A model generated the notes under the pieces. That model worked only from the letters and a program-made list of their open reading frames with translations, was not told the origin of the DNA and ran no database searches. From NCBI GenBank assembly GCA_039807685.1, contig JBDHRR010000001.1, positions 60,505-124,504 of the forward strand: 64,000 nucleotides of DNA, given 5' to 3'. A program made the translations under genes and the position numbers. Origin of the DNA: Burkholderiales bacterium. Lineage in GTDB: Bacteria > Pseudomonadota > Gammaproteobacteria > Burkholderiales > Casimicrobiaceae. Position 1 is the first letter of the stretch. Each line of letters begins with the position of its first letter. Of this stretch, positions 24,673 through 42,860 are shown piece by piece.

Positions 24673-27195
24673 TCAATCGCCGAGGGCGAGGGCGAACGCG
24701 GCTTCGAGATCCATTGCCTCGCCTTCGGCGCGCAGGCGCGCGATCTCGGCCGGCGCCATGGCCTGCGCGAGTTCTGCCGCGAGCCTTGCGTGGACGCGCA
24801 GTTCGCCACGCTGGCGCAGGATCTCCCGTGCGGCGTGTGCCGCATCGCTGCAGCCGCCGATGCGCGCGGCATCGGCGAGTCGGCCGGTGCGTGCCGCGCG
24901 CAGCGCGAGGTGGTCGAGGAGCTGAGGGGCGAGTCCGTTGTCGCGACAGGGTGGGTGCGCGTCGTGCGCCACGCGCAGCGCGGCCGCGAGGTCGCCACGC
25001 TCGACCAGCATGCCGATCCGATTGATCAGACACAGCGCCATGGCGGTACCGCCTGCCATGTCGGGCATCCCGCGCAGCGTCGTCATGACCTCGTGGTTGG
25101 CCACCAGCGCGCGGTCGAGGTCGCCCGCCAGCCACGCCATTTCGGCGACGTTGCTCTGCAGCAGCGCGGCGACGCGCGTGACGCCGGTGCTGCGGCACAG
25201 GGCGATCGCCTGCTCGCTCGTGGCCAGCGCGCCCTCGGCATCATCGCGGACCGACATCATGTAGGCGACCGCTCCGAGGTAGGCGATGCGCGAGCGCGTC
25301 TGCGTCGAGCCTTCGAGGAGGCGCGCCGCCTCGGCGAGCGCGGCGTCGGCCTCGGCGAGCCGGTTGGCGTAGACGAGCGGATAGGCGCCACTCACCAGCG
25401 CATAGGCAAGCCCTTCGCGGTCGCCGGCAGCCCGTTGGGCCGCGATCGCCTCGGCGAATGCGTCGATCACCACGGTCAGCGACGACACCTCGGCCAGCAT
25501 CGCTTGCGCCAGGGCGAGCCGCGCGCGATCGCGCGCTGAAGTCGTGTGATCCGCCCGCGCCAGCGCATGCGCGATCCACTCGCGTGCCTCGTTGCGGTCG
25601 GCGAGATTGTTGACGAAGAGCCGCACCGCGACTGCCGCGAGGGTGATGCCGAGCGCCGCATCACCACCGCCGAGCGCCCAGGCGAGGGCGGCCCGCACGT
25701 TGCCGAGTTCGGGTGTGCATGCGGCGTGCCACTCGGCGTCCGACATGCCCTGCCAGCGGTCGAATATCTCGCTGAAGAGGTCGCGATAGTGCTCCGCGTG
25801 ACGCCGCTGCACGTCGGTCGTTTCGCCTGCTTCGGCGAGCCTTTCCAGCGCGTAAGCGCGCGTCGTCTGGTGCAGGTGGTAGCGCGGCAAGCCGCTGCCG
25901 CCGCTGGCGACGACGAGCGAGCGTTTCTCGAGACGGGCGAGCACGTCGACCGCGGCATGCGCATCGATCGCCGGATCGGCAACCACGGCGGCGATCCCGG
26001 CGAGCGTCGCGCCATCGACGAAGACCGCCATGCGTCGCAGCACGCTCCGCTCGTCCTGCGCCAGGAGGTCGTAGCTCCAGTCGAGGACGGTGCGCAGCGT
26101 CTGGTGATGCCGGGTGGACGTTGCCGTGGTCCTCGTCAGCAGCCGGAAGCGGTCGTCGAGGCGCGCCGCGATCTGCTCGATCGACAGCGTTTGCATCCGG
26201 GCAGCGGCGATTTCGAGTGCCAGGGGCATGCCGTCGAGGTCGATGCACAGTTGCGCCACCAGCGGCGCGGAGGCGGTGGTCAGCGCGAAGTCCGGCTGCT
26301 GCTGGCGGGCGCGCGCGACGAACAGGCGCGCGGCGTCGCTGCGGGCGACGGTCTCGGCGTCGGCACCGGGCGCGGGCAGTGTCAGCGGGTCGAGCCGGTA
26401 CGTCCGCTCCTGGGCAAGATCGAGTGGCTCGCGGCTGGTGGCGAGGATTTTCAACCGTGGGGCGCGCTCGATGAGCGTCGCCACGAGGTCAGCGCTGGCG
26501 GCGCGCACGTGCTCGCAGTTGTCGATGACGAGGAGGGCGCAGCGCGCGGCGAGGTACCCCGCGATGGCCTCCGACAGCACCTGCGCTCCCTGGCGGCGGA
26601 TTCCCAGCACCTGGGCCACGGTGTCGGCGACGCGAGCCGGGTCGGTCACGTTCGCGAGTCCGATGAACCAGATCCCGTCGGGGTACGCATCCGCCTGCCG
26701 TGCGGCCAGTTCCACGGCGAGGCGGGTCTTGCCGCTGCCGCCGGCGCCGACGATCGTCAGGACGCGCGCCGCCCGCAGCTCCCGCGCGATCTCGTCCTGC
26801 TCGCGTTCGCGACCGATGAACGAGGTCGTGGCGGCCCTGAGGTTGGTGTGCGCCACGCGGCTCGATGCGGGCGCGGCATCCGCGGACGTCACCGGTCCCA
26901 CGAACCGGTAACCGCGCCACGGCACCGTCTCGATCCACTTCGCGGCACCCGGCACCGCCTTGAGTGCCCTGCGGATCGCGGAGATCTGTACCGCGAGGTT
27001 GCTCTCCTCGACGACAGCGTCGCGCCACGCCGCATCGAGGATATCCGCCTTGGCGACCATCTCCGGCGCGTGCCGGACGAGCATCGCCAGCACGGCAACC
27101 GCGCGCGGTCCGAGCGGAAGCGACGTCCCGGCGTGGCTCAGAAGCGCGGCGTCGACGTCGAGGCGCAGCGGTCCGAGGTCGAAAATTCGGGTCAT
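24673..27195 (-). CDS. OmpR-type winged helix plus STAND NTPase plus TPR-like regulator
   Basis: N-terminal LGPRAVAVL...VEESNLAVQISAIRRAL...IETVPWRGYRF; Walker A GAGGSGKT; Walker B LLVIDNCEH; LDGMPLALEIAAAR; helical C-terminus. Confidence 0.88.
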   Translation of the reverse strand: MTRIFDLGPLRLDVDAALLSHAGTSLPLGPRAVAVLAMLVRHAPEMVAKADILDAAWRDAVVEESNLAVQISAIRRALKAVPGAAKWIETVPWRGYRFVGPVTSADAAPASSRVAHTNLRAATTSFIGREREQDEIARELRAARVLTIVGAGGSGKTRLAVELAARQADAYPDGIWFIGLANVTDPARVADTVAQVLGIRRQGAQVLSEAIAGYLAARCALLVIDNCEHVRAASADLVATLIERAPRLKILATSREPLDLAQERTYRLDPLTLPAPGADAETVARSDAARLFVARARQQQPDFALTTASAPLVAQLCIDLDGMPLALEIAAARMQTLSIEQIAARLDDRFRLLTRTTATSTRHHQTLRTVLDWSYDLLAQDERSVLRRMAVFVDGATLAGIAAVVADPAIDAHAAVDVLARLEKRSLVVASGGSGLPRYHLHQTTRAYALERLAEAGETTDVQRRHAEHYRDLFSEIFDRWQGMSDAEWHAACTPELGNVRAALAWALGGGDAALGITLAAVAVRLFVNNLADRNEAREWIAHALARADHTTSARDRARLALAQAMLAEVSSLTVVIDAFAEAIAAQRAAGDREGLAYALVSGAYPLVYANRLAEADAALAEAARLLEGSTQTRSRIAYLGAVAYMMSVRDDAEGALATSEQAIALCRSTGVTRVAALLQSNVAEMAWLAGDLDRALVANHEVMTTLRGMPDMAGGTAMALCLINRIGMLVERGDLAAALRVAHDAHPPCRDNGLAPQLLDHLALRAARTGRLADAARIGGCSDAAHAAREILRQRGELRVHARLAAELAQAMAPAEIARLRAEGEAMDLEAAFALALGD

Positions 27196-27407: not shown

Positions 27408-28028
27408 CTAGCCCGGCGCGATGCCGGCGTGGGATCCAGCCGATTCCACGAGCTGGATGAGTTGCGCCGGCGAGCGGGCGCCGAGCTTGCGCATCGCTCG
27501 CGAGCGGTGGACCTTCACCGTGCTCTCGGTGCACGCGAGGTCCGCCGCAATCTGCTTGTTGAGGAGTCCGCCGGCTACCCGAGTGAGAACCGCCCGCTCG
27601 CGCTGCGTGCAACGTGCCAGGAGGTCGTGCGCGCGGGCGGCGTGACGGGCATCGGCGTGACTCGTGATCGCGCGGGTCGCCGCCGCCTCGATCGCCGCGA
27701 TGAGCGTGCCGTCGTCGGTCGGCGATGGCAGCACGTCGATGACGCCGGCGCGCATCGCGCGCACCACGAAGCGCAGGTCGACTCCCCGATATACGACGAT
27801 CACGGCAGCGCCGATCGCGCACAGCCGCTGGCAGAGCTGCGTATCCACTTCGGGTGAGCTGTCGTCGACGTCGATCACCACGCACGTGGGCGTCGCCAGG
27901 GTTGCGGCGGCGCCCCAGACCGCGAGCGAGTCGACCGTGTCGATCCGATAGCGATCCGGAAGCCGGAGGGAGGCGAGGCGGGTGGTTGCGGTGGAGTCGC
28001 AGACGACGCGAATGATCGGAGGCTGCAT
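27408..28028 (-). CDS. FixJ-like LuxR regulator with atypical receiver domain
   Basis: C-terminal TQRERAVLTRVAGGLLNKQIAADLACTESTVKVHRSRAMRKL; VRAMRAGVIDVLPSP where FixJ has GAxDFxxKP. Confidence 0.75.
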   Translation of the reverse strand: MQPPIIRVVCDSTATTRLASLRLPDRYRIDTVDSLAVWGAAATLATPTCVVIDVDDSSPEVDTQLCQRLCAIGAAVIVVYRGVDLRFVVRAMRAGVIDVLPSPTDDGTLIAAIEAAATRAITSHADARHAARAHDLLARCTQRERAVLTRVAGGLLNKQIAADLACTESTVKVHRSRAMRKLGARSPAQLIQLVESAGSHAGIAPG

Positions 28029-28219
28029 GGCTGGGCCGGGACACCGCCGCGCTTGGGGCGGCGTCGGTAGTCGAGCAAACGATTGCCGGCGCCACGCGAC
28101 GTGGCCGCGGCGGCTTCGGCGATGCCCCGCACGATGCGGCAAAGCCGTCGAAAAATCCTGAAGAATTCCTGAAAATGCCGCGCAAGACGGCGAAGCGGCG
28201 GCCCGCGGCCGCCGTGCGG

Positions 28220-29260
28220 TCATCGCGGCGGCTCGGATCGCGCTGCGGTCGATCCGCGCGGCGGCCGTGTTGGCGTCGGTGCCCGCGATGCGCGGGCGCC
28301 CCCGGCGACGATTCCCAGCGTCATGACGAGGAGGGTAGCAACGACGTTGTGCAGGGTCGCCGCCACGAGCGGACGGATACCGATCGAGGTCGCGGCGCCG
28401 ATGACCACCTGCGCGGCAACGAGCACCACCAGCCACACCGCGAGTCGACGCCGCGTCGCGCGCAGGCGCCATGCCAGCAGGCCAACCGCGAGCGCAAACG
28501 CCAGCGCGACGATGCGGTGCGCAACCTGCAGTCCTTGCCGGGCGCCGGCATCCAACGCGGGCGACGCTTGCCACGGATCGAATGCCGCGACGCTCGGTCG
28601 CGCGCCGCTCATGCACAGCGGCGTGGCACAGGCGTCGATCGCGTGCCGGGCGCCGATCATCGTGCCGCTGTACGCGAGGAGGGCGACGAGCGCCAAGGCC
28701 ACGAGCGCGCTGCGGGTGATCGCGGCGCCGGCCGGCGCGCTGGCGTCGACGGCGGGCGAGCCCGCTTCCCCGCGGCGGTGCAACGCTGCCGCGACCCACC
28801 CGAGGACAGCGGTCAGGAGGAGCCCGCCGACGAGGTTGCCGAGCGTCACCAGTGGCAGGTCGTGCGGGGTATAGCGACCCAACCACGCGAGGAAGGCGGT
28901 CACGGTCACTGCCACGACGGCGGCGACGCGTCCCGAGACGGCGAGCGACGTCCAGCCGAGCACGGTCACGACGAGAACGAGAACGCCGACGGTCGTCGCG
29001 CTCACCCGGTGCAGCGCGCGGGCGCTGCGCACGCCGGGGAGATCGTCGGTCTTCGCGGTGACCGCAGCCGGCGGGTGGGACGTGGTGCCGGGAGCGGGGC
29101 TGGCGGCGATGCCCGGCGCTGCGGCGGTCGCATGCGCGGTCCGATAGCACGCCGGCCAATCGACGCAGCCCACCCCGTTCTGCGCATGACGGATGAAGGC
29201 GCTCGACGCGGTGATGCACACCGTGAGCAGCGCCGCGACGAGCGCGACGAGCCGGATCAT
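28220..29260 (-). CDS. ctaA: COX15/CtaA (heme A synthase)-family protein with altered catalytic residues
   Basis: GCVDWPAC loop, second Cys pair CATPLC, ALHR, VAHR, TLHN; the second substrate-site His appears as N (TLGNL). Confidence 0.75.
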   Translation of the reverse strand: MIRLVALVAALLTVCITASSAFIRHAQNGVGCVDWPACYRTAHATAAAPGIAASPAPGTTSHPPAAVTAKTDDLPGVRSARALHRVSATTVGVLVLVVTVLGWTSLAVSGRVAAVVAVTVTAFLAWLGRYTPHDLPLVTLGNLVGGLLLTAVLGWVAAALHRRGEAGSPAVDASAPAGAAITRSALVALALVALLAYSGTMIGARHAIDACATPLCMSGARPSVAAFDPWQASPALDAGARQGLQVAHRIVALAFALAVGLLAWRLRATRRRLAVWLVVLVAAQVVIGAATSIGIRPLVAATLHNVVATLLVMTLGIVAGGARASRAPTPTRPPRGSTAARSEPPR

Positions 29261-30693
29261 CGGGCCGGACGCGCCGCGATCACGCTCGCCAGCACCACCC
29301 ACACGAAGAGGACGCCGCCGGCGATGGCGAGCAAACCGCCCAGCCCCATCAAGCCCATGCCCGCCACCTCCTGCGTGGTGCGCAGCGTCTGCTCGGCACC
29401 CGCCACCTTGCGCTGCACGCCGTAGCCGCCGGACCACAGCAGGCCCAGGATGTGCAGCAATTGCCCACCGCCGTACAGCCACGGCTGCCAGTCGGCGAGC
29501 CGTCCGCGGACCTCACGAAAGCCCAGGCGCGGCAGGAGCGCGTACGCCAACCCCATGAGCGCCAGCGTCACGCCGACGATCGAGCCGTGGTAGTGCGCCG
29601 GAATCCGCACGTCGGAGCCCTGGATGAGGAAGCCGATCAGGCCCCCGGCCGCGAACAGCAGTAGCGAGGCAACGAGCGCCGCGCGCAGCGGTCGCGTCAC
29701 CGGGGTCGTCGCCCGCTGCCGCACCAGCGCCACCGCGAGTGCCAGCACCATCGGCAGGATGGCGAGCCCGCCGCCGAAGCGCATGAGCCAGGTCATCATC
29801 CTGCGATACTCGACCGAGACCACGGTCCAGTTGAGATAGATGAGCGGCGCGACGAATACCGAGACGAGACCGATCGCGTAGACGAGGACGACCACGCGCG
29901 GACTCAGCGGCAGCGGCGAGCCGGCAAGCGTGGCGAGCCACGCCCAGGCGACCAGCATGAGGAGCGTCCATGTGAACTGGATGACGTGCCCGGGGCCCCA
30001 GAACAGGAGTTCGTAATAGGTGAGCGCGTCGACGTCGCGCGGAACCTCGGCGAGCGACCACGCCAGCGCCAGCAGCGCAACCGCGCTCGATACCGCGGCG
30101 GCCTTGAGGCCGAAGCGCAGCGCATCGGCCCCGTCGAGGCGCAGGCTCATGCGCGCCGGCGCGACGAACGAGCGCAGGGTGAGGAGCAGGAAGCCCGCGC
30201 CCAGCACGACGAGTCCGGCGAGGAAAGTGTCATTGTCGAGGACCGGCACGTAGTTCGACATCACCGGTACGGCAGCGCCGGTGAAGGGGGCCGCCGCCAT
30301 CAGTGCGGTGCCGGCGGCGGTCACCGCGAGCGCGAGCCACCCCAGCCAGACGAAACGCGGCGACGTATCGAGTGTCCACAGCATGCCCGCCATCGACACG
30401 AACCAGACCAGCACCGACAGGTCGACGTGAACGACGAGCGCGACCCGGAAGAAATCCCCTGCCGGCACGATTCCGGCGAAGAACGGCGTGCGGGCGAGCA
30501 CCAGCAGGATCGAGAACACGCCGGCGCCGATCAGCGCCGCGACACCCAGCAGCAGCCAGCCGGTGGCGATCGAGCGCTGCGCGGTGGCGGGAATCGCGAT
30601 CTCGAAGCGGGCGTCGCGTATCCCGCGCGCGACGCCGCCGAGCACGCGCGCCGGCTCCGCCGATGAGGTGCTGCTCAGCGCGCGCTGCGGCAT
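29257..30693 (-). CDS. Divergent heme-copper-superfamily subunit I paralog lacking the His-His pair
   Basis: About 12 TM; VVHVDLSVLVW (helix II), FWGPGHVIQF (helix VI), PAHYHGSIVG (helix X); no HH in the helix VII region. Confidence 0.72.
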   Translation of the reverse strand: MPQRALSSTSSAEPARVLGGVARGIRDARFEIAIPATAQRSIATGWLLLGVAALIGAGVFSILLVLARTPFFAGIVPAGDFFRVALVVHVDLSVLVWFVSMAGMLWTLDTSPRFVWLGWLALAVTAAGTALMAAAPFTGAAVPVMSNYVPVLDNDTFLAGLVVLGAGFLLLTLRSFVAPARMSLRLDGADALRFGLKAAAVSSAVALLALAWSLAEVPRDVDALTYYELLFWGPGHVIQFTWTLLMLVAWAWLATLAGSPLPLSPRVVVLVYAIGLVSVFVAPLIYLNWTVVSVEYRRMMTWLMRFGGGLAILPMVLALAVALVRQRATTPVTRPLRAALVASLLLFAAGGLIGFLIQGSDVRIPAHYHGSIVGVTLALMGLAYALLPRLGFREVRGRLADWQPWLYGGGQLLHILGLLWSGGYGVQRKVAGAEQTLRTTQEVAGMGLMGLGGLLAIAGGVLFVWVVLASVIAARPAR

Positions 30694-30744: not shown

Positions 30745-31251
30745 TCATCGGATGACGACGCCGCCTTGATCGGGCACGAAGTCGATGAGGACGACCTGTC
30801 CGGGGGCGAGCTTGATCCGACGCTCCGCCTCGTGATTGAAGCCCTTGACGCGAACGCTGTCGTTCACCTGCACGCGCAGGAGATGCTCGCCGGCGGGAAT
30901 CGGCTGCCGGCGATAGCCGCTCGCCGCGCCGTCGCGACGCAGCCCTGCCGGCGCGAACGTCTCGTCCAGCACCAGCTTGCCGTCGAGATCGACGCGCACG
31001 TGCACCGGCGAACGCTCGCGCGGGCAGTCCATCTGCGCGCGCAGTTGTGGCGACATCTTGGCGAGCTCCTCGGGACTGCGCGGACGGCAGTCGGTGGTGA
31101 GCTGGCCGGGCGCGCGGAACGACAGCCGCAGGAGCGCCTGATCGGGCGGCAGGTGCTGGTACGCGGGCGCCGTCGAGAAATAGCCGATGAAAGCAGCGAA
31201 CAGGATGTAGAGGATCGCCTGTCCGCCGTAGCGCAACGCCGAGTTAGCCAT
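30745..31251 (-). CDS. Hypothetical membrane-anchored protein with two Cys
   Basis: Single N-terminal TM (QAILYILFAAFIGYF), TTDCRPR and MDCPRER, beta-rich C-terminus; overlaps the upstream gene's stop. Confidence 0.75.
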   Translation of the reverse strand: MANSALRYGGQAILYILFAAFIGYFSTAPAYQHLPPDQALLRLSFRAPGQLTTDCRPRSPEELAKMSPQLRAQMDCPRERSPVHVRVDLDGKLVLDETFAPAGLRRDGAASGYRRQPIPAGEHLLRVQVNDSVRVKGFNHEAERRIKLAPGQVVLIDFVPDQGGVVIR

Positions 31252-32836
31252 GGATACTGTCTCCGAGCGGGTGGCGGGTCGTCCCGCCGTCTGCCTTTCT
31301 TGTCTCGCCCGCGGGGAGCCGCGCGCGGAACGATTCGATGTCGCTGTCGAGTGCGGCGCCCTGTTCGCGGCCGGCATGGATCACCGCGAGCCGCCTCCGA
31401 TCGACGCTGCGGCGCAGCCACGGCGGACGCAGGCCGGCGATGCGCTCGAGCGTCCATCGTACCCCGAAGCGGTATTCGCAATCGCCCATCGCGCACGTTG
31501 CCACCACGACCCCGGCCGCGCCCGCGCGCAAGCCGTAGTCGACGAAGGTCGGCGGCAGCATGCCGGTACACGGCAGTCCGATGACGATCGTGCCGGGTTG
31601 CCTGGTCGGCTGCGCACCGTGGTGACAGGCGAAGACCAGGAGTGAGCCGCTCGCGTCGGGTCGGCCGAATGCAGTGTCGATCGCTGCGCGCACCGTATCC
31701 ACCGTGTAGTACGGCAGGTCGATGCCACTCACCAAGGCGGTGACCGAACGGAACGGCACCGCCGACGGGCAGGCGCCCGCGCAGATCCCGCAGGAGGCAC
31801 AGCGATCGGCGTCGACCACCGCGATCTCGCCCCTGCCGCTCGGATGCGGCGCCATGGCGATCGCGGCGTAGGGGCAATCCTCGAAGCAGCGCCGGCAGCC
31901 GTTGCAATACAGCGGGACGACCACCGCCGGCGCCGGTCGCGGCGTGCGACCGAGCCACGGCAGCACCGCGAGCAGCAGCGTCAGGCCTACGCTCGCGATC
32001 CAGACCGCCTCCGGCGAAGTGGTGTAGATGGCCGGCAACGGCGCGAGATAGAACCAGTCGATCGGCAGGTCGGTAGGGATTCGCGCGAGGTCGGCGGGCG
32101 GCCCCGACACCGCCGGTACGACGAGCGACAGCGCGACGAGCGCGGCGAGACTCGCCAGCGCCACGCGCCGCGTGGTGCCGGTCTGTGGGCGGGTGAGCCT
32201 TTGCACGTGTGCCCACATGGTAAGCAGCAGCACGAGCGGCAGCCCGATGTGCAGGAAGGCAACCAGCGAGAACAGGCGGTCGGACACCGCGCTCTCGGCG
32301 ATGAAATTGCGCACCAGCGCCGGCCCGAAGCCGGGAAGGACGCCGAACCATTCGGTGGTGGCGGTGGCGACGAACTGCGCGAGCGTGTCCCACACCATCC
32401 AGTAGCCGACCACACCGGCGGCGACCGCGAGCCAGAGCGTGGGGATGCCGCTCACCCAGCTGTACCAGCGAAAGCCGCGGAAGCGCCCGAGCAGCAATTC
32501 GCGCAGGAGATGCACGATGATCACCACCACGAAGGCGTCCGACGCGTAGCGGTGGAGGCTGCGCATCAGCCCGCCGGCCCACCGCTGGCCGTGCGTGAGT
32601 GTCTCGACCGAGGCGTACGCACCGACGACGCTGGTGTCGTAGAAGATGTACAGGTAACCGCCGGTCAACGCGATCAGCCAGAAGAGGTAGAACCCGAGTC
32701 CCCCGAGCTGGCGCAATGGATTGTCGTCGACGCCGCAGAGGCGGTCGAGGGCATGCTCGCCGGCGCGCCACGCGCGCGCCGCCGCGGCGTCGGCCGCGAC
32801 CGCGGCATCGGGAGTCGAAGACAGGTTGAACGCCAT
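31244..32836 (-). CDS. Cytochrome b - 2x[4Fe-4S] - FlpD/MvhD-type Fe-S fusion protein
   Basis: Four heme His (SLHRY, IVHLLR, FLHIG, WAHVQ); IDWFY; CNGCRRCFEDCP and CASCGICAGACP; FACHHG, LPCTGMLPP, TCAMGDCEY. Confidence 0.85.
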   Translation of the reverse strand: MAFNLSSTPDAAVAADAAAARAWRAGEHALDRLCGVDDNPLRQLGGLGFYLFWLIALTGGYLYIFYDTSVVGAYASVETLTHGQRWAGGLMRSLHRYASDAFVVVIIVHLLRELLLGRFRGFRWYSWVSGIPTLWLAVAAGVVGYWMVWDTLAQFVATATTEWFGVLPGFGPALVRNFIAESAVSDRLFSLVAFLHIGLPLVLLLTMWAHVQRLTRPQTGTTRRVALASLAALVALSLVVPAVSGPPADLARIPTDLPIDWFYLAPLPAIYTTSPEAVWIASVGLTLLLAVLPWLGRTPRPAPAVVVPLYCNGCRRCFEDCPYAAIAMAPHPSGRGEIAVVDADRCASCGICAGACPSAVPFRSVTALVSGIDLPYYTVDTVRAAIDTAFGRPDASGSLLVFACHHGAQPTRQPGTIVIGLPCTGMLPPTFVDYGLRAGAAGVVVATCAMGDCEYRFGVRWTLERIAGLRPPWLRRSVDRRRLAVIHAGREQGAALDSDIESFRARLPAGETRKADGGTTRHPLGDSIHG

Positions 32837-32879: not shown

Positions 32880-33731
32880 TCAGGCGCGGCGCGTCCGCCG
32901 CAACTCGCGCAGCGTGAACCAGGCGATTGCCCCGAGCGTGGTCAAGCCGGCGAAGATCTCGAAGAACAGCGAATAGTTGAGACGGTAGCCGCCGCCTTGC
33001 GGATCGTACACGGTACAGTACAGGATCACCTTGTCCCAGACGTTGCCCAGTGTGAGTTCGCGCGAGGCCTGCCCCGAGCGCAATTCCTTGAGCGGTTGCA
33101 CGAGCATCGGCAGGTCGAAATTCTCGCCGTAGACCTGGCGGTAGATGACGCCTTCGGCATCGACGATGGTGACCTGCGTGACGTGATCGAAGCCCTTGGC
33201 GGTGGCCTCGTAGACGAAGCCCAGGTTGGCGGTGAGTGCCTCGACCTGCGTCGGATCGGGGCTCAGGAAATGCCAGCCGGGCTCATCGATGCGGTTCTGG
33301 CGCTTGAAGGCGGCCATTGCCGCCGGCGTGTCAAAGGGTTGATTGAAGCCGATCGACACCACGGTGAAGGCGTCGTCGCCCAAGGCCCGGCGCGCCTCGC
33401 GCACGGCCTGCGCGAGGAACTGCGTGGCGACCGGACAGGCCTGGAAGCAGCCGGTGTACACGAGGCTGACCAGCAGGGGTCGTCCCTGGTAGTCGCGCAG
33501 GCGAACGTCCTTGCCGTTGCTGTCGCGCAGGCGGATGTCGGCAACCGGCCGGCCGATCGCCGCCTGGCTCGTCGTGACGGCGCGCTGGTAATCGGGCGCC
33601 CGGGGTGCCTTGGCGCTGTCTTCTGCCGTCGCCCGCGCCGGCAGCGCGACCATGCAGGCGGCGGCGCCGGCCGCGAGCGAGGTGATCAGGATGCGGGCGA
33701 GCGGTGCGCGGCGGGAGCTGCGACTCGGCAC
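32880..33731 (-). CDS. SCO-family copper chaperone with C-terminal membrane extension
   Basis: YTGCFQACP (CxxxC) and GFDHVTQ His; C-terminal TM FFEIFAGLTTLGAIAWF. Confidence 0.88.
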   Translation of the reverse strand: MPSRSSRRAPLARILITSLAAGAAACMVALPARATAEDSAKAPRAPDYQRAVTTSQAAIGRPVADIRLRDSNGKDVRLRDYQGRPLLVSLVYTGCFQACPVATQFLAQAVREARRALGDDAFTVVSIGFNQPFDTPAAMAAFKRQNRIDEPGWHFLSPDPTQVEALTANLGFVYEATAKGFDHVTQVTIVDAEGVIYRQVYGENFDLPMLVQPLKELRSGQASRELTLGNVWDKVILYCTVYDPQGGGYRLNYSLFFEIFAGLTTLGAIAWFTLRELRRTRRA

Positions 33732-33735: not shown

Positions 33736-34602
33736 TCAGGCCCCGAGCGAGGACCTCATCCAGCCGTCGGCGATGGTTCCCATGAGGAGCAGCGAGAGCT
33801 GGACGAGCGAGGCGTGGAAGCTTGCCAGCGCATTGGCCCGATTCGGCGTGCGGGCCAGCAGCCAGGCACGCCACACGAAGAGCGCACTGCCGGTCGCTGC
33901 ACATGCGAGGTAGAGCCAACCCGGGCCGAAGAATGCAAGCGCGAGCGAACAGCCGACCATGACGAGCGCGTGCCAGAAGATCGCCCAGGCCGCGAAGCGG
34001 TCGCCCTTGACCACCGGCAGCATCGGCACCCCGACGCTCGCGTAGTCGTCGCGGCAGACGATCGCGAGACTCCAGAAGTGCGGCGGCGTCCACAGGAACA
34101 GCACGAGGGCGAGGACGAGCGCCTCCGGCGAAAGCTGCGGGGAGACCGCCGCCGCGCCGGCCAGCACCGCGAAGCTGCCGGCCAGCCCTCCGATCACGAT
34201 GTTCCACGCGCTGCGACGCTTGAGCCAGACGGTGTACACGATCGCGTAGACGAAGGCGCCCAGGAACGTGTACAGCGCCGCGGCCGCGTTGGTGGCGAGC
34301 CACGCCGCCGCCACCGCGATTCCGGTCAGCGCGACGATGAGTACCAGCCAGCCGCGATGGTGCCGCATGTGCCCGCTCACGAACGGGCGGCGACGCGTCC
34401 GCGTCATCCGCGCGTCGAGATCGACCTCGTAGAACTGGTTGAAGGCACCTGCGGCCGCCGACGACAGCAGCACGGCAAGCGTCAGGACCACGCCTTGCCA
34501 GGGGGCGAGGGTGCTGCCGGGCGACACCATCAGCCCGGCGACCGCGGTGAGCGCGATCGCCACGCCGATGCGCAGCTTGAAGAGATTGAGCAGCGCCTTC
34601 AT
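33736..34602 (-). CDS. ctaB: Protoheme IX farnesyltransferase (heme o synthase)
   Basis: LFKLRIG, NQFYEVDLDARMTRTRRRP, YTVWLKRR, LWTPPHFWSLA, DYASVGVPMLP. Confidence 0.93.
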   Translation of the reverse strand: MKALLNLFKLRIGVAIALTAVAGLMVSPGSTLAPWQGVVLTLAVLLSSAAAGAFNQFYEVDLDARMTRTRRRPFVSGHMRHHRGWLVLIVALTGIAVAAAWLATNAAAALYTFLGAFVYAIVYTVWLKRRSAWNIVIGGLAGSFAVLAGAAAVSPQLSPEALVLALVLFLWTPPHFWSLAIVCRDDYASVGVPMLPVVKGDRFAAWAIFWHALVMVGCSLALAFFGPGWLYLACAATGSALFVWRAWLLARTPNRANALASFHASLVQLSLLLMGTIADGWMRSSLGA

Positions 34603-34678: not shown

Positions 34679-36385
34679 CTAGCTCAGACCCCAGACCGTC
34701 GACAGGTACTTCCAGTTGACGAAGTAGTACAGCACGAAGGCGACCAGGAACACCATCGCGAACACGAAGGTACCCGGAACGCCCCAGCCGCCGCCGTGGC
34801 CGCCATCCTCGACGAGCGAGACCTCCACCGGCAGGCGCAGCGGCGTCACCTTGGTCGAGTAGGCACCCGAATCCAGTCGCTTGCCGAAGAGGATGGTGCC
34901 GACCGTCACGGTGATGTACATCACGCCGCCGATGACCGCGATGATGCCGCCGATCGCGAAGATGGCGATCATGAGCAGTGCCGTTCCCGGGAACTCGTAG
35001 GGGAATGCGGCGCCGGCGAAGGTGATGTCCCAGCTGCGACGCGGCACGCCGAGCGTGCCGGCGCCCATCATGGCGAGCGTGAACACACCCATGCCGAGAC
35101 CGAAGACGTACGGCTGCAGCTTCGCCCAACCCGGGAGGATCAGCTCGCGATTGAAGAGCGTGGGCAGCAGGAAGTACGTCAGCGCCATGAAGGCGAGCGT
35201 GGTACCGATCACCACCGTGGCGTGGAAGTGCCCCGGCACGTAGATCGTGTTGTGGATGATCATGTTGAGCTGCTCGGTGCCCATCATCACGCCCGAGATG
35301 CCGCCCAGGAAGCCGAAGCCGATGAGCGAGATGAACATCCCCGAGAACACCGGATTGCTCCACGGCGCCTTGCGCAGCCACTCGAAGAGCCCCTTCGTGT
35401 AACCCTTCGCCCGCTGCGCGGCTTCGATCGCGCCCGGCACGGTGAGGCCGTGCAGCATCGACGCCAGCACCGCGAGGTACATCGCGTAGCTCGTGTTGAA
35501 CACCTTCCACTCGGTGCCCACCGCCGGGTCGGCCAGGATGTGGTGCGCCGACGCGAGTTGCAGGAACAGGATGTAGAGGAGGAACGCGGAGCGGCTCACC
35601 CGCTCGGACATCGGCTTCGCGCCGAAGACGATGGCGGCGATCGCATACCACACCGCGATGTGCGCCGACACGTTGATCTGCTGCGACGAGTGACCGAACG
35701 CCCACCAGATCACGCGGTACATCGCCGGATCGATGTGGCTGATGTATCCCGCCGACCACAGGAAGGTGGGGATGAGGATGATCGCACCCGAGGCGATCGT
35801 GAAGATCGCGATGATGCAGGCGGTGATCGCGCCGAAGGTGACGAGCGGAACCGAGCCCTCGTAGGTCTTCTCGGACTTGGCGATGACGAGCGTACCCAGG
35901 AACACGAAGCAGCCGATGAGCGCGCCGACCGCGAACAGGATGAGGCCCAGGTAGAACGCCGGAATCGCCGGCAGCGGCACGTAGGACGTCATCATCACCG
36001 TCGCGTTGCCGGTGAAGATCGCGACGTTGAAGGTGATGGTGCCGATCACCATCAGCGCCCAGGCGAGCCAGGCGAGTCGCGGGGTGGCGATCCGGCAGCG
36101 CAGCAACGTCGACGAGCAGAAATAGAGGATCGCGATCTCGAAGAAGATGATCCAGACGACCAGCATGTCGAGACCGTGCGCGGTCAGGTACATGTAGAAG
36201 TTGTCGGCGTCGAGCAGGTGGATCGCCTGCCAGCGCGTGAGCGTGATCAGCAGGGCGAGAACTCCGCCGATCAGCAGCGCGACGACGGCGGCGACGGCGT
36301 TGGCCTTGATGAGCAACTCGGCCGACTTGTGGAATTGCAGCCCCGTGCGGGGGCAGATGCGGTACTGCGGGACGGCGGTGGCCAT
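34679..36385 (-). CDS. B-family-derived heme-copper subunit I; probable eNOR-type nitric oxide reductase catalytic subunit
   Basis: All six His present (LTAHG; GHSSQQ; SAHHI; GHFH). Helix VI reads H-S-S-Q-Q (35678-35692) instead of HPxxY, so there is no His-Tyr cross-link. Confidence 0.8.
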   Translation of the reverse strand: MATAVPQYRICPRTGLQFHKSAELLIKANAVAAVVALLIGGVLALLITLTRWQAIHLLDADNFYMYLTAHGLDMLVVWIIFFEIAILYFCSSTLLRCRIATPRLAWLAWALMVIGTITFNVAIFTGNATVMMTSYVPLPAIPAFYLGLILFAVGALIGCFVFLGTLVIAKSEKTYEGSVPLVTFGAITACIIAIFTIASGAIILIPTFLWSAGYISHIDPAMYRVIWWAFGHSSQQINVSAHIAVWYAIAAIVFGAKPMSERVSRSAFLLYILFLQLASAHHILADPAVGTEWKVFNTSYAMYLAVLASMLHGLTVPGAIEAAQRAKGYTKGLFEWLRKAPWSNPVFSGMFISLIGFGFLGGISGVMMGTEQLNMIIHNTIYVPGHFHATVVIGTTLAFMALTYFLLPTLFNRELILPGWAKLQPYVFGLGMGVFTLAMMGAGTLGVPRRSWDITFAGAAFPYEFPGTALLMIAIFAIGGIIAVIGGVMYITVTVGTILFGKRLDSGAYSTKVTPLRLPVEVSLVEDGGHGGGWGVPGTFVFAMVFLVAFVLYYFVNWKYLSTVWGLS

Positions 36386-36964: not shown

Positions 36965-37144
36965 TCACTTGGCGAGCGGCGTCACCGGCACCGTTGCGAT
37001 TTCCATGACGCCCCAGAGGATATAGAGCACGGTGGGAATCACGACGCCCAGGAACAGCAGCAGGAACGGGTTGTCGAGGATCTGCTGCATCACGGGGATG
37101 CGCTCTTCTTGGTTTTCGGGCTGCGATCGAGTATGGTCAGCCAT
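36965..37144 (-). CDS. Small single-TM subunit (subunit IIa-like), 59 aa
   Basis: MADHTRSQPENQEERIPVMQQILDNPFLLLFLGVVIPTVLYILWGVMEIATVP; RBS GAAGGGGGAG; first gene of the operon. Confidence 0.75.
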   Translation of the reverse strand: MADHTRSQPENQEERIPVMQQILDNPFLLLFLGVVIPTVLYILWGVMEIATVPVTPLAK

Positions 37145-37452: not shown

Positions 37453-39372
37453 TTGCTCAAGATAGTCCAAGGCTTCCTGCAGTGGTTTTTCCTGCGGATG
37501 GAGGCGATCGGCAACCGGGTATTCGGCGATCGGCTGAACCCGATGTACTACCTGGGCGCGACGAGCTACTGGATGTTCTGGATCGTCGTCGCCAGCGGCC
37601 TGTACGTCTACGTTTTCTACGAGACCGGGGTCGACAAGACATACGCCTCGATGGAGGCGATCACGCACGGGCAGTGGTTCGCCGGCGGCATCATGCGCAG
37701 CGTGCACCGCTACGCGTCCGACGCGATGGTGCTGACCATGCTGCTGCACATGCTGCGGCATTTCGCCTTCGACCGCTATCGCAGCTTCCGCGCCTTCTCG
37801 TGGGTCACCGGCGTGATCGTGCTGTGGCTCGTCTACGCCTCGGGCGTGAACGGCTTCATGCTGCCCTGGGACAAGCTCGCGCAGTTCGTGGTGATCGGCA
37901 CCACCGAATGGCTCGATTCGCTGCCGGTGTTCAACGGCATCCTGACGCGCAATTTCATCACCCCCGACGCGATCACCGACCGGCTTTTCTCGCTCCTGTC
38001 GTTCCTGCACATCGGCATTCCGCTGGTGGTGATGCTCGCGCTGTGGATCCACACGCAGCGCGTGCCGCGCGCGTCGCAGATTCCGCCTCGCCGTCTCGCC
38101 TTCGGACTGCTCGCGATGCTGCTCGTGCTGTCGCTCGTGAAGCCGGTGGTGAGCCAGGCGCCCGCCGATTTCAACACGGTGCCGATGCGGCTCGACTTCG
38201 ACTGGTTCTATCTCACCGTCTATCCGCTCATCTACGCCTGGGATCCGCTCAAGCTGTGGATCCTCTGTGCCGGCGTCACCGTACTGCTGCTGGCGTTGCC
38301 GTGGCTGCCACCGGCGCGCAGCGGCAAGGGCCGCGCGTATCACCTGACGGCGCACCCGGGTCGCCAGGGCGCACCGGTGCGCGTCGGCGAGACGCTGCTC
38401 GACGCGGGGCTGCGCGCGGGCATCGCGCTGCCTTACGAATGCCGCTCTGGCGGCTGCGGCGTGTGCAAGGCGACGATGATCGGCGGCGAGGTCGAGATGT
38501 CGGGCTACCAGCCCTCCGCGCTCTCCGCCGAGGAGCGCAGCGCGGGTCGCATCCTGCTGTGCTGCGCCCGCGCGCTGTCCGATGTCGAGTTCGAATACGA
38601 GGCGGATGCGGCCGCCCGCGGCACGAAGATCGAGACCTACGAGACGCGCGTCGAGCGACTGGCGCCGCTCGCCCACGACGTGATGCTCGTCGCGCTGCGC
38701 CTGCCCGAGGGACGCAAGATCGAGTTCGAGGCCGGCCAGTACGTGAACGTCGTGCTCGACGGCGGCGCACGACGCAGCTACTCGTTCACGACGCCGTCGG
38801 GCGCCACCGACCTCATCGAACTGCACGTGCGGCTGATGCCTGGCGGGTTGTTCACCTCGCGCGTCTTCGAATCGATGAAGGTGGGCGATCCCATCACCAT
38901 CGAGGGCCCGGTGGGGTCGTTCGTGCTGCACGAGCCGAGCGAGAAGCCGCTCATCTTCGTCGCCGGCGCGACCGGCTTCGCGCCGGTCAAGAGTCTCCTC
39001 GAACAGGCTTTCCACATGGGGATCCAGCGGCCGCTCTACCTGTACTGGGGCGTGCGCCGTCGCCGCGATCTCTACCTCACCGAGTTGCCGGAACGCTGGG
39101 CGCGCGAGCACCCCAATTTCCACTTCGTGCCCGTGCTCTCGGAGGCGGCCCCCGAGGACGACTGGCACGGCCGCACGGGCCTCGTCCACGAGGCGATCCT
39201 CGCCGATTTCCCGAACCTGTCGGGCTTTGCGGTCTACGCCTGCGGTTCGGTGCGCATGGTCGCCGCGGCGCGGCCGGCGTTCGTCACGCAGGGCCTGCAC
39301 GAGGATGCGTGCTACTCCGACGCGTTCATCCCCGCCGGTGGCGCCGAGCCGGGAGTCGCGCCGCCCGCGTAA
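37453..39372 (+). CDS. Cytochrome b - [2Fe-2S] ferredoxin - FAD/NAD(P)H reductase fusion
   Basis: Heme His SVHRY, LLHML, FLHIG, WIHTQ; FDWFY; CRSGGCGVC...LLCC; RSYS (FAD); AGATGFAP and YACG (NAD). RBS GGAGGA before TTG. Confidence 0.88.
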   Translation: MLKIVQGFLQWFFLRMEAIGNRVFGDRLNPMYYLGATSYWMFWIVVASGLYVYVFYETGVDKTYASMEAITHGQWFAGGIMRSVHRYASDAMVLTMLLHMLRHFAFDRYRSFRAFSWVTGVIVLWLVYASGVNGFMLPWDKLAQFVVIGTTEWLDSLPVFNGILTRNFITPDAITDRLFSLLSFLHIGIPLVVMLALWIHTQRVPRASQIPPRRLAFGLLAMLLVLSLVKPVVSQAPADFNTVPMRLDFDWFYLTVYPLIYAWDPLKLWILCAGVTVLLLALPWLPPARSGKGRAYHLTAHPGRQGAPVRVGETLLDAGLRAGIALPYECRSGGCGVCKATMIGGEVEMSGYQPSALSAEERSAGRILLCCARALSDVEFEYEADAAARGTKIETYETRVERLAPLAHDVMLVALRLPEGRKIEFEAGQYVNVVLDGGARRSYSFTTPSGATDLIELHVRLMPGGLFTSRVFESMKVGDPITIEGPVGSFVLHEPSEKPLIFVAGATGFAPVKSLLEQAFHMGIQRPLYLYWGVRRRRDLYLTELPERWAREHPNFHFVPVLSEAAPEDDWHGRTGLVHEAILADFPNLSGFAVYACGSVRMVAAARPAFVTQGLHEDACYSDAFIPAGGAEPGVAPPA

Positions 39373-40117: not shown

Positions 40118-40317
40118 GGCGTCTCGCCCGGTGTCACCTGCCAGCGTGCCGCGGGTGGCACGGGTGGCGCCGCCAGCGGGTCGACGTCGGTGAGCGGCAG
40201 CAGGCCCGGCGTTTCCATGTCGTCGAACTGCCCGTGGTCGACCGCCCAGAAGAGGACGAAGCCGGCGCCGATGAGGACCACGATCGAGACGCCGATGAGC
40301 ACGACGAGAATGCTCAC
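40114..40317 (-). CDS. ccoS: cbb3 oxidase maturation protein CcoS/FixS
   Basis: GTG start; MSILVVLIGVSIVV...FWAVDHGQFDDMETP. Confidence 0.88.
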   Translation of the reverse strand: MSILVVLIGVSIVVLIGAGFVLFWAVDHGQFDDMETPGLLPLTDVDPLAAPPVPPAARWQVTPGETP

Positions 40318-40378
40318 CGGACGACCCTCCGCGCGATCGCGCTGCGGGGCAATCCGCCCTCGGGACGGCCCGTCGGGC

Positions 40379-42832: not shown

Positions 42833-42860
42833 CGTCGTGGCGGGCCGGCGAGCACGGCCG

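What the first reader, a model, noticed from the sequence alone, without database searches (positions are those of the whole stretch)
31244..32836. Cytochrome b fused to 2x[4Fe-4S] and an FlpD/MvhD-type domain inside a NOR operon
Seen: a full four-His cytochrome b with the Qo-site PEWY replaced by IDWFY, two CxxCxxCxxxCP motifs, then a Cys pattern (FAC...LPCTG...TCAMGDCEY) like MvhD/FlpD. Known: MvhD/FlpD [2Fe-2S] modules normally relay electrons to HdrA in anaerobic electron-bifurcating complexes. Inference: an anaerobe-type Fe-S relay has been grafted onto a bc1-type cytochrome b, linking the quinone pool to a low-potential cytoplasmic partner.
Basis: partly seen in the sequence, partly recalled or inferred. 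Interest (0 to 1): 0.75.

Follow-up and report, generated by a model that had tools for sequence, protein, structure and literature searches.

The report
Cytochrome b–iron-sulfur partner of eNOR
The gene is real and encodes a membrane cytochrome b fused to a cytoplasmic chain of three iron-sulfur clusters; it belongs to a widespread, already noticed but never tested family that travels with an eNOR-type nitric-oxide reductase and probably wires that N2O-producing enzyme to the cell's electron supply.

Summary
ORF 31244-32836 (-) is a 530-aa protein with a bc-type cytochrome b (four invariant His, six helices A-F, IDWFY in place of PEWY). It also carries two CxxCxxCxxxCP [4Fe-4S] motifs and a FlpD/MvhD domain with four invariant Cys.

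It is not a new fusion. Kao & Hunte (2014) named it the "PDWF-FeS clade", and a 2026 Ferrigenium preprint describes the same operon. No function has been tested.

The neighbouring oxidase is an eNOR, not an sNOR, because Gln replaces the cross-link Tyr.

New here:
- In 400 and in 191 sampled genomes the gene co-occurs almost perfectly with eNOR subunit I (23/23 and 34/35), even where the two genes lie about 930 kb apart, and with nirS (25/27).
- The downstream 168-aa anchored beta-sandwich protein is fused to this protein in 77 of the 150 best family representatives, so the two are partners.
- Qi-site residues are absent.
- HdrA is not the partner: an sHdrA exists in this genome but does not co-occur with the family.
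- Sister fusions carry NAD(P)H-flavoprotein modules.

Best reading (moderate confidence): a dedicated transmembrane electron module of eNOR, most likely carrying cytoplasmic electrons outward. A Rieske-less Qo-type bifurcation is not excluded.

The parts
31244..32836 (-). The finding: 530-aa cytochrome b / 2x[4Fe-4S] / MvhD-like fusion protein
   Evidence: Pfam hits; 50-86% identical full-length homologues; AF2 model with pLDDT 81 and pTM 0.81
31949..32785 (-). Cytochrome b module, residues about 18-296: surface helix a; TM helices A-F; cd and ef helices; heme ligands H95/H196 (P side) and H109/H210 (N side)
   Evidence: Foldseek aligns about 285-290 columns with bc1 cytochrome b (TM-score 0.55 on the target, rmsd about 4 A). 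Helix map. His conserved in 80/80 relatives.
32048..32062 (-). Qo-like motif I259-D-W-F-Y263 (PEWY position)
   Evidence: D and W invariant in 80/80 relatives; first residue L/I/P/V/F. Aligns with the PVWY of the genome's own petB. This loop has low AF2 confidence.
31757..31924 (-). Ferredoxin-like domain with two CxxCxxCxxxCP motifs (2x[4Fe-4S])
   Evidence: Fer4_7 and related Pfam hits; eight Cys invariant in A1/A2; aligns with the C-terminal ferredoxin domain of HdrA chains
31316..31642 (-). FlpD/MvhD-like domain with C404, C423, C448 and C453 (putative [2Fe-2S])
   Evidence: PF02662 above cut-off. Aligned with MvhD of 5ODC, 9SW2 and 7BKB. Cys conserved in 78-80 of 80 relatives. Fer4+FlpD together align with positions 570-768 of the HdrA2 model.
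30748..31251 (-). 168-aa partner: N-terminal TM helix plus a periplasmic Ig-like beta-sandwich. Its ATG overlaps the stop codon of the fusion gene (ATGGCTAA).
   Evidence: Sequence read. Present next to the fusion gene in 73/74 loci. Fused to its C-terminus in 77 of 150 family representatives. AF2 pLDDT 96. No Pfam family and no significant PDB fold match.
32880..33731 (-). SCO1/SenC copper chaperone, 43 nt upstream of the fusion gene
   Evidence: Pfam; found in 68/71 loci
33736..34602 (-). Heme O synthase (CtaB/CyoE)
   Evidence: TIGR01473, 263 bits, above cut-off
34679..36385 (-). eNOR subunit I: a B-family-derived heme-copper protein with Gln at the cross-link Tyr position (G-H-S-S-Q-Q)
   Evidence: Alignment with T. 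thermophilus ba3; Gln conserved in 58/58 orthologues; diagnostic table in PMC8756737
36397..36936 (-). eNOR subunit II, a cupredoxin with a CuA motif (CNEFCGIGHHKM)
   Evidence: COX2 and CoxB hits; motif read from the translation
36965..37144 (-). Small one-helix membrane protein upstream of subunit II (ORF listed to 37222; likely start MADH at 37144)
   Evidence: Conserved in position in the related loci; start inferred
29257..30693 (-). 478-aa paralogue of subunit I. It keeps the helix VI His and the HxH of helix X but has lost the HH of helix VII, so the metal-B site is degenerate.
   Evidence: PF00115, 55.7 bits; pairwise alignment; present in 47/69 loci
28220..29260 (-). CtaA/COX15-like heme A synthase (likely start MIRL at 29260, overlapping the upstream stop codon)
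   Evidence: PF02628, 81.7 bits; start inferred
37453..39372 (+). Divergently transcribed sister fusion: the same type of cytochrome b (FDWFY; 49% identical over the cytochrome b part) joined to [2Fe-2S] ferredoxin, FAD and NAD(P)H domains (BenC/Fre type)
   Evidence: Pfam and NCBIfam; identity; present in 23/36 loci with enough flank

Best explanation
The protein is the membrane electron-transfer subunit of an eNOR-type nitric-oxide reductase system.

Shown:
- It is a bc-type cytochrome b with two hemes stacked across the membrane and a Qo-like xDWF pocket on the periplasmic side.
- It has six helices, so both termini are cytoplasmic.
- It lacks the Qi-site residues.
- On its cytoplasmic face it carries two [4Fe-4S] clusters and an MvhD-type [2Fe-2S] domain.
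- It is translationally coupled to, and in half of the family fused with, a membrane-anchored periplasmic beta-sandwich protein.
- Across genomes it occurs essentially only together with eNOR subunit I.

Inferred:
- The cytochrome b and the beta-sandwich form one complex that serves eNOR.
- Electrons most likely run outward: from a low-potential cytoplasmic donor (ferredoxin-like, docking at the MvhD-type cluster), through the two [4Fe-4S] clusters, heme bH and heme bL, to the periplasmic side. There they reach the CuA centre of eNOR, either directly or through a quinone bound in the xDWF pocket.
- The neighbouring cytochrome b-ferredoxin-FNR fusion would do the same from NAD(P)H.

This works like NADPH oxidase/ferric reductase or MsrQ-Fre conduits, built here on a bc-type cytochrome b. 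The link to eNOR is well supported (about 0.8). The outward direction is the weaker part (about 0.4-0.45).
For: Architecture and cofactor ligands.

Fold and helix map. Helices A-F only, so the Fe-S tail lies on the same side as the N-terminus. This is confirmed by the natural fusions, in which the MvhD domain is followed by one TM helix and then the beta-sandwich.

Qi site: the Qi His (bH ligand +5) and the KD at the start of helix E are present in the genome's own petB but absent from both fusions.

Conserved cluster in the 80 related loci: TM-CoxB-CoxA-(CtaB)-SenC-X-beta-sandwich. COX1 is present in 59/59 loci, SenC in 68/71 and the beta-sandwich in 73/74.

Phylogenetic profile:
- Class sample: 23/23 eNOR-positive genomes carry the gene (p=1e-33).
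- Phylum sample: 34/35 (p=5e-33). This includes genomes where the two genes are 13-20 kb or about 930 kb apart (G408).
- nirS is present in 25/27 carriers against 46/373 others.

Support for the direction:
- Sister fusions of the same cytochrome b clade carry NAD(P)H-oxidising flavoprotein modules: BenC type in this window and flavodoxin-FAD-NAD (CysJ/CPR type) in P0210. From established knowledge, all characterised relatives of these modules pass electrons from NAD(P)H to an acceptor.
- No cytochrome c or cupredoxin donor gene lies in the cluster.
- The physiological donor of eNOR is unknown; it was assayed only with TMPD/ascorbate (PMC11214002).
- Both cytochrome b fusions were detected in the Ferrigenium proteome under denitrifying conditions (bioRxiv 10.64898/2026.01.22.701106).
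Against: - No experiment exists for any member of the family.
- The invariant Asp-Trp of the Qo-like motif, and the retention of helices E/F and the cd helices, argue that quinol or quinone chemistry matters. A pure wire would not need them.
- Outward electron flow dissipates membrane potential.
- Two representatives (P0168, P0175) have the cytochrome b and the beta-sandwich but no cytoplasmic Fe-S module, so the cytoplasmic input is not universal.
- The cytochrome b-FNR sister is missing from most carriers outside the close relatives.
- No cytoplasmic donor was identified.
- I could not read coordinates of the AF2 model, so cluster-to-heme distances are not verified.
- Purified R. marinus eNOR is active without such a partner when given artificial donors.
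Confidence: 0.45

Rival explanations
1. Rieske-less Qo-type quinol oxidase coupled to eNOR. Quinol is oxidised in the xDWF pocket. One electron goes to the high-potential side (CuA/eNOR, perhaps helped by the beta-sandwich or SenC). The other is driven through bL, bH and the Fe-S chain to a low-potential cytoplasmic acceptor. This would be quinone-based bifurcation, or reverse electron flow powered by NO reduction.
For: - Invariant D-W in the Qo motif and retained Qo-forming helices.
- Strict coupling to a CuA-bearing, very high-potential enzyme.
- No Qi site, so the second electron must leave through the Fe-S chain.
- Many carriers are sulfur- or iron-oxidising lithotroph lineages that need reverse electron flow, such as Sulfuritalea, Sulfuricaulis, Gallionella and Acidiferrobacteraceae.
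- The 2026 preprint proposes quinol:NAD+ reduction for the sister fusion.
Against: - No Rieske protein or other evident one-electron acceptor. The beta-sandwich partner has no recognisable cofactor fold, and its best-conserved His (H47) is Ala in this window.
- Electron transfer from bH to ferredoxin-type clusters runs uphill and against the membrane potential.
- The BenC- and CPR-type modules of the sister fusions are NAD(P)H oxidisers in all known cases.
Confidence: 0.2
2. Inward redox loop of the NarGHI / HdrDE / DsrMK / Qmo kind. Quinol is oxidised at the periplasmic side and both electrons cross to the cytoplasmic Fe-S chain, reducing an unidentified cytoplasmic acceptor. This is.
For: A di-heme cytochrome b plus a cytoplasmic Fe-S chain is the classic layout of such loops (established knowledge). 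Qo-like pocket on the P side and no Qi site. An MvhD-like terminal cluster suggests docking to another protein.
Against: - No candidate cytoplasmic reductase is encoded in the conserved cluster.
- HdrA is not coupled: 3 of 27 carriers have sHdrA.
- It does not explain the near-obligate coupling to eNOR, whose substrate site and CuA receive electrons from the periplasmic side.
Confidence: 0.12
3. Maturation factor rather than catalytic partner. It would be a transmembrane reductase supplying electrons for eNOR assembly: reduction of Cu(II) or Fe(III) for the CuA or metal-B sites together with SenC, or electron supply to heme A synthase. CcoG does this kind of job for cbb3 oxidase, and ferredoxin does it for Cox15.
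For: The gene sits between SenC and the heme O / heme A synthase genes. Strict co-occurrence with eNOR fits an assembly factor equally well. From established knowledge, CcoG also combines 2x[4Fe-4S], membrane helices and an Ig-like domain.
Against: - A complete bc-type cytochrome b with a conserved Qo-like pocket is elaborate for a chaperone role.
- CtaA and CtaB are absent from many loci that keep the gene.
- The protein was detected in the proteome together with eNOR under denitrifying growth, but stoichiometry is unknown.
Confidence: 0.13

Closest known systems
'PDWF-FeS clade' of cytochrome b (Kao & Hunte 2014, Genome Biol Evol, PMC4122944)
   Same: [quoted passage not shown] The same clade holds a cytochrome b-ferredoxin-flavin reductase fusion (Alicycliphilus), like the window's second gene. 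No Rieske protein accompanies it.
   Different: Nothing essential; the window's protein is a member (first motif residue Ile instead of Pro). That paper gave no genomic context, partner or function.
eNOR operon accessory proteins of Ferrigenium straubiae (bioRxiv 10.64898/2026.01.22.701106; genes 2878407319 and 2878407323)
   Same: Same operon content: eNOR II, eNOR I, heme O synthase, Sco1, a 'scaffold' protein, and two cytochrome b fusions. A Gallionella locus (L048) with this order is syntenic with the window.
   Different: The preprint calls the two fusions unusual and possibly Ferrigenium markers. Here they are shown to be widespread (at least 588 species) and near-obligately linked to eNOR. 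The preprint proposes NAD+ reduction; I favour the opposite direction.
Cytochrome b of Rieske/cytochrome b complexes (bc1, b6f + subunit IV)
   Same: Fold of helices A-F, four His ligands with bc1 spacing, cd and ef surface helices, and a Qo-motif position with an acidic residue followed by Trp.
   Different: No Rieske partner, no Qi His or Asp, no helices G/H, no heme c1/f subunit, and a cytoplasmic Fe-S tail.
MvhD / FlpD, and the ferredoxin-domain+MvhD cassette at the C-terminus of HdrA2
   Same: PF02662 above cut-off. The Cys of the [2Fe-2S] site align. The whole Fer4+FlpD stretch aligns with HdrA2 model positions 570-768.
   Different: No hydrogenase or bifurcating HdrA context. The host is a nirS/cbb3/aa3-bearing Burkholderiaceae denitrifier. 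The domain is tethered to a membrane cytochrome.
Di-heme cytochrome b plus cytoplasmic Fe-S systems (NarI-NarH, HdrE-HdrD, DsrM-DsrK, QmoC with the MvhD-like domain of QmoB) and outward conduits (NOX/FRE, MsrQ-Fre). From my own knowledge; not tested here.
   Same: Works-like analogues: two hemes spanning the membrane, connected to cytoplasmic Fe-S or flavin modules.
   Different: Those use NarI-type or ferric-reductase-type four- to six-helix cytochromes, unrelated to bc-type cytochrome b. None is dedicated to a heme-copper NO reductase.

Membership tests
PDWF-FeS clade of cytochrome b (Kao & Hunte 2014) | bc-type cytochrome b carrying an xDWF Qo motif | tested here: met
   IDWFY at residues 259-263; D-W in 80/80 relatives
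PDWF-FeS clade of cytochrome b (Kao & Hunte 2014) | C-terminal fusion to a 4Fe-4S domain and an MvhD domain; no Rieske gene alongside | tested here: met
   Pfam; no Rieske hit among the cluster ORFs
Rieske/cytochrome b complex (bc1/b6f) cytochrome b | Four His ligands for hemes bL and bH on helices B and D | tested here: met
   H95/H109 and H196/H210, invariant
Rieske/cytochrome b complex (bc1/b6f) cytochrome b | Adjacent Rieske iron-sulfur protein and a c-type cytochrome subunit | tested here: not met
   None in the cluster or in the 80 related loci. The genome's canonical petB lies on contig C62.
Rieske/cytochrome b complex (bc1/b6f) cytochrome b | Qi site (His five residues after the bH ligand; Lys/Asp at the start of helix E) | tested here: not met
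   Present in the genome's own petB; replaced by Thr and absent in the fusion
Rieske/cytochrome b complex (bc1/b6f) cytochrome b | Helices G and H (or G in subunit IV) | tested here: not met
   The cytochrome b part ends after helix F at about residue 296
MvhD/FlpD (PF02662) | Profile match above the curated threshold | tested here: met
   44.4 bits against 22.3; 47.6 bits in the genome scan
MvhD/FlpD (PF02662) | Four Cys ligands of the [2Fe-2S] cluster | tested here: met
   C423, C448 and C453 align with the Cys of solved MvhD chains. C404 is invariant in the family but lies outside the aligned stretch. Cluster binding itself was not tested.
MvhD/FlpD (PF02662) | Functional association with HdrA and/or an Mvh/Frh-type hydrogenase | tested here: not met
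   No such gene in the cluster. sHdrA is elsewhere in the genome but is present in only 3/27 carriers.
eNOR (neighbouring heme-copper enzyme) | Gln at the position of the cross-linked Tyr (sNOR and bNOR have Asn, gNOR Asp, O2 reductases Tyr; PMC8756737 Table A4) | tested here: met
   H232-S-S-Q-Q236 aligned with H233-P-I-V-Y237 of ba3; 58/58 orthologues; table
eNOR (neighbouring heme-copper enzyme) | B-family K-channel Ser (S309 of ba3) retained; it is missing in sNOR (PMC11214002) | tested here: met
   Ser aligned with S309; criterion
eNOR (neighbouring heme-copper enzyme) | CuA-type subunit II, and heme A biosynthesis genes in the operon | tested here: met
   CNEFCGIGHHKM motif; CtaB and CtaA-like genes
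eNOR (neighbouring heme-copper enzyme) | NO reductase activity and absence of O2 reduction | not testable with these tools
   Shown only for the R. marinus enzyme

The most novel reading that the evidence does not exclude
The cytochrome b, its beta-sandwich partner and eNOR form a Rieske-less supercomplex. Quinol oxidation at the xDWF pocket is bifurcated: one electron reduces NO via CuA, and the other is pushed through bL, bH, two [4Fe-4S] clusters and the MvhD-type cluster to make a low-potential cytoplasmic reductant (ferredoxin or NAD(P)H). This would be a quinone-based electron bifurcation that lets lithotrophic denitrifiers gain reducing power from NO respiration.
Probability: 0.15. Interest if true: 0.85.

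Novelty: new member of a known kind. Interest (0 to 1): 0.45.

Why it matters
eNOR is one of the most common N2O-forming enzymes in nature (PMC11214002), yet its physiological electron donor is unknown. In Proteobacteria it almost never occurs without this cytochrome b-Fe-S protein and its periplasmic partner. That points to a concrete, testable candidate for how eNOR is supplied with electrons, and to a respiratory module not in the textbooks.

If electrons come from the cytoplasm, NO reduction by eNOR would bypass the bc1 complex and change the energy yield assumed for aerobic denitrifiers. If the Qo-like site bifurcates, it would be a new way to generate low-potential reductant. In practice, the gene is a good marker for correcting eNOR operons that are misannotated as 'cytochrome c oxidase' and 'hydrogenase iron-sulfur subunit'.

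Tried and rejected
1. sNOR classification (norSY-senC-orf1 of ammonia oxidisers). Rejected: the residue at the Tyr position is Gln, not Asn, and S309 is kept.
2. HdrA as partner of the MvhD-like domain. An sHdr-like cluster exists on contig C155 but does not co-occur with the fusion. Rejected.
3. A curated family name. NCBIfam gives only partial, below-cut-off hits (ExtP for the cytochrome b part, HdrA2 for the tail). Source names are generic.
4. Fold of the 168-aa partner. The model is confident, but Foldseek finds only generic Ig/CBM-like sandwiches at E>0.007 and Pfam finds nothing. There is no cupredoxin, Rieske or PCuAC likeness.
5. Heme-to-cluster distances. Model coordinates are not exposed to the Python box.
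7. Supplementary tables of PMC11214002 are not held.
8. I did not find a named Rhodothermus or Nitrosomonas locus for a direct tree. The collection tools return only the 80 best loci, and the genome search gives no names.
9. An obligate heterodimer with the cytochrome b-FNR sister is unlikely. The sister is absent from most carriers in the even sample and from 13 of 36 well-flanked loci.
Full report
OBSERVATION. The ORF at window 31244-32836 on the minus strand encodes 530 aa with the codon bias of real genes in this 69% G+C genome (GC3 0.87). Pfam finds three modules:
- Cytochrome_B, residues 44-213, E 5.8e-18.
- A 4Fe-4S dicluster domain, residues 311-359.
- FlpD/MvhD (PF02662), residues 413-507, 44.4 bits against a cut-off of 22.3.

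In alignments of 17 and of 72 full-length homologues the following are invariant:
- the four heme ligands H95, H109, H196 and H210;
- the eight Cys of the two CxxCxxCxxxCP motifs;
- the four Cys of the FlpD domain (C404, C423, C448, C453);
- D260-W261 of the IDWFY motif.

The same residues hold in 78-80 of 80 genomic relatives. C423, C448 and C453 align with the Cys of solved MvhD subunits (5ODC_D, 9SW2_D, 7BKB_F). The whole Fer4+FlpD stretch aligns with the C-terminal ferredoxin-domain/MvhD cassette of the HdrA2 model.

ANATOMY. An AlphaFold2 model built on 72 sequences has pLDDT 81 and pTM 0.81. Foldseek aligns its first ~290 residues with bc1 cytochrome b (about 285-290 columns, rmsd ~4 A). 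The helix map reproduces the bc1 elements: surface helix a, A, ab, B, C, cd1, cd2, D, E, ef and F. Helices G and H are missing. With six transmembrane helices, the C-terminal Fe-S domains lie on the same side as the N-terminus, which is the cytoplasm.

An alignment with the genome's own canonical petB (contig C62) addresses the Qi site. The Qi-site His (five residues after the bH ligand) and the Lys-Asp at the start of helix E are absent from this protein and from its sister fusion. The acidic-Trp core of the Qo motif is kept. The protein therefore has a Qo-like periplasmic pocket and no Qi site. Electrons on heme bH can only exchange with the Fe-S chain. That last step is an inference, because I could not read model coordinates.

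SURROUNDINGS. The minus-strand cluster reads as follows:
- a small one-helix protein;
- a CuA-type subunit II (CNEFCGIGHHKM);
- a heme-copper subunit I;
- heme O synthase;
- SCO1/SenC;
- the fusion gene;
- a 168-aa protein whose ATG overlaps the fusion's stop codon (ATGGCTAA);
- a 478-aa paralogue of subunit I that has lost the helix VII His-His;
- a CtaA-like heme A synthase.

Divergently transcribed is a second cytochrome b of the same type. It is 49% identical over the cytochrome b part, carries FDWFY, and is fused to a [2Fe-2S] ferredoxin and FAD/NAD(P)H domains of the BenC/Fre type. Further on lie a DsbD_2 protein, a CcoI-type copper ATPase and ccoNOP.

WHICH NOR. Aligned with T. thermophilus ba3, subunit I has Gln at the position of the cross-linked Tyr237 (G-H-S-S-Q-Q). 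It keeps the His-His pair and the K-channel Ser309. Gln is present in all 58 orthologues in related loci. PMC8756737 (Table A4, after Hemp & Gennis) lists Tyr for O2 reductases, Asn for sNOR and bNOR, Asp for gNOR and Gln for eNOR. PMC11214002 states that Ser309 is lost in sNOR and that eNOR uses heme A, with CtaA in many operons. The enzyme is therefore an eNOR, not the sNOR (norSY-senC-orf1) of ammonia oxidisers. The genome also has nirS and a cNOR-like NorB but no nirK. The host is a denitrifier. Its closest public relatives are Burkholderiaceae MAGs and Lautropia sp. SCN 69-89.

NOT A NEW FUSION. [quoted passage not shown] They also described an Alicycliphilus cytochrome b fused to ferredoxin and a flavin oxidoreductase. 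They named the group the PDWF-FeS clade and noted the lack of a Rieske protein. A 2026 preprint on Ferrigenium straubiae describes exactly this operon as an eNOR operon. It reports both cytochrome b fusions in the proteome and proposes a quinol:NAD+ oxidoreductase supercomplex. Databases name the protein 'hydrogenase iron-sulfur subunit' or 'cytochrome b N-terminal domain-containing protein'. No experiment on function exists in the library searched.

DISTRIBUTION AND COUPLING (new here). At least 588 species-level genomes encode a relative. 669 clusters at 50% identity match the family profile at E<=1e-30. In the 80 best loci the gene order is conserved. Where the flank allows, COX1 is present in 59/59 loci, COX2 in 58/58, SenC in 68/71, the 168-aa gene in 73/74, the subunit-I paralogue in 47/69 and the cytochrome b-FNR sister in 23/36.

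Even samples of genomes gave the following:
- Class sample, 400 genomes. The fusion is in 27 and eNOR-type subunit I in 23. All 23 eNOR genomes carry the fusion. The four fusion-only genomes are fragmented assemblies (Fisher p=1e-33).
- Phylum sample, 191 genomes. The overlap is 34, with 3 fusion-only and 1 eNOR-only genomes (p=5e-33).
- Unlinked cases. The association persists where the two genes are unlinked: 13-20 kb apart in several genera, and about 930 kb apart in G408. It is therefore not only an operon effect.
- nirS-family genes are in 25 of 27 carriers against 46 of 373 non-carriers (p=8e-19). They often lie within 5-20 kb.

THE PARTNER. The 168-aa protein is a TM helix plus an Ig-like beta-sandwich (AF2 pLDDT 96). 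It has no Pfam family and no significant fold match. Its invariant residues are C55, C76, R78 and R80, and H47 and H123 are nearly invariant.

In 77 of the 150 best family representatives this domain is fused to the C-terminus of the cytochrome b-Fer4-MvhD protein. One example is P0124: 39% identity over 152 aa, E 3e-42. This Rosetta-stone fusion shows that the two are parts of one machine. It also confirms the topology: the MvhD domain is inside, one helix crosses the membrane, and the sandwich is outside.

The cytoplasmic module is interchangeable within the clade:
- Fer4+MvhD, as in this gene;
- Fer2-FAD-NAD, as in the window's sister gene;
- flavodoxin-FAD-NAD of the CysJ/CPR type (P0210);
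- none at all (P0168 and P0175, cytochrome b joined directly to the sandwich).

THE HdrA IDEA. The genome has a single FlpD domain. Unexpectedly, it also has an sHdr-like cluster next to ATP sulfurylase on contig C155: HdrC-like, HdrB-like and HdrA-like genes, the HdrA-like one scoring 190 bits to the HdrA2 model. However, sHdrA is in only 3 of the 27 carriers of the fusion, against 22 of 373 others. HdrA is therefore not its general partner.

MECHANISM. What is shown:
- a two-heme transmembrane path;
- a Qo-like pocket outside;
- no Qi site;
- three Fe-S clusters inside;
- a periplasmic sandwich partner;
- near-obligate coupling to eNOR.

My best reading is a dedicated electron module of eNOR, with electrons most likely moving outward from a low-potential cytoplasmic donor to CuA. 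The reasons are:
- The interchangeable cytoplasmic modules of sister proteins are NAD(P)H-oxidising reductases in all characterised relatives (established knowledge of BenC/Fre and CPR/CysJ families).
- Ferredoxin-type clusters, b hemes and CuA form a downhill series, and the membrane potential assists outward electron movement.
- The cluster encodes no cytochrome c or cupredoxin donor.
- The natural donor of eNOR is unknown.

Several points count against it. The conserved Asp-Trp pocket suggests quinol chemistry. The outward route wastes membrane potential. Variants without a cytoplasmic module exist.

The rivals are a Rieske-less bifurcating Qo site (the most novel case), a NarGHI/Qmo-like inward loop, and an assembly-factor role beside SenC, CtaA and CtaB. 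None can be excluded by sequence alone.

VERDICT. The gene is real and correctly read, and the operon is a NOR operon of the eNOR type. The 'graft' is an old, widespread, previously noticed family, not a novelty of this genome. Interest lies in the family's untested role as the likely missing electron-supply module of a globally important N2O-forming enzyme. I rate it moderate, at 0.45.

Noticed in passing
window 37453-39372 (+): A second cytochrome b of the same PDWF type is fused to [2Fe-2S] ferredoxin plus FAD/NAD(P)H domains (BenC/Fre-like), divergent from the eNOR operon. It matches the Alicycliphilus fusion of Kao & Hunte and gene 2878407319 of Ferrigenium. It is optional: present in 23/36 close loci and rare in the even class sample.
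   Followed up: partly
window 29257-30693 (-): A 478-aa paralogue of heme-copper subunit I keeps the heme ligands and one metal-B His (GHVIQF) but has lost the helix VII His-His pair. It is conserved in 47/69 related loci. Its function is unknown; the 2026 preprint calls it a 'scaffold'.
   Followed up: partly
window 30748-31251 (-), residue 47: The beta-sandwich partner has Ala where 97% of relatives have His (SFRHPG becomes SFRAPG). C55, C76 and H123 are kept. If 2 Cys + 2 His form a metal site, this copy lacks one ligand; it could also be an assembly error.
   Followed up: no
own genome contig C155:9600-14500 (L102 5632-10476): An sHdr-like cluster (HdrC-like, HdrB-like with a CCG domain, HdrA-like flavoprotein, second Fer4 protein) lies next to ATP sulfurylase. 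This suggests sulfur-compound oxidation in this Burkholderiaceae genome.
   Followed up: partly
genomes G457, G493, G524, G547, G566 (family f256): Two full-length copies of the cytochrome b-Fer4-MvhD gene lie in tandem next to a more divergent eNOR subunit I (51-62% identity). Some copies carry an internal stop codon (TGA or TAA).
   Followed up: no
P0168, P0175, P0210 (representatives): Architectural variants of the clade: cytochrome b fused directly to the beta-sandwich with no Fe-S module (P0168, P0175), and cytochrome b fused to a flavodoxin-FAD-NAD diflavin reductase (P0210).
   Followed up: partly
window 20815-24191 and 27408-28100: Regulatory genes flank the cluster: a hemerythrin-domain protein (22259-22771), a CHASE3 histidine kinase (22758-24191), two LuxR-type regulators, and an 840-aa STAND/Trans_reg_C ATPase (24673-27195). 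They are possible O2/NO-responsive control of the operon.
   Followed up: no
window 39383-46424 (-): ccoNOP (cbb3 oxidase), a CcoI-type copper P-type ATPase and a DsbD_2 membrane protein lie directly beside the eNOR cluster. Two copper-dependent low-oxygen respiratory enzymes and their copper supply are therefore grouped.
   Followed up: no
own genome C1:9562-10764: A cNOR-type NorB (207 bits to 4XYD_A) matches no NCBIfam model at 1e-10. The genome thus has two different NO reductase types plus nirS.
   Followed up: partly
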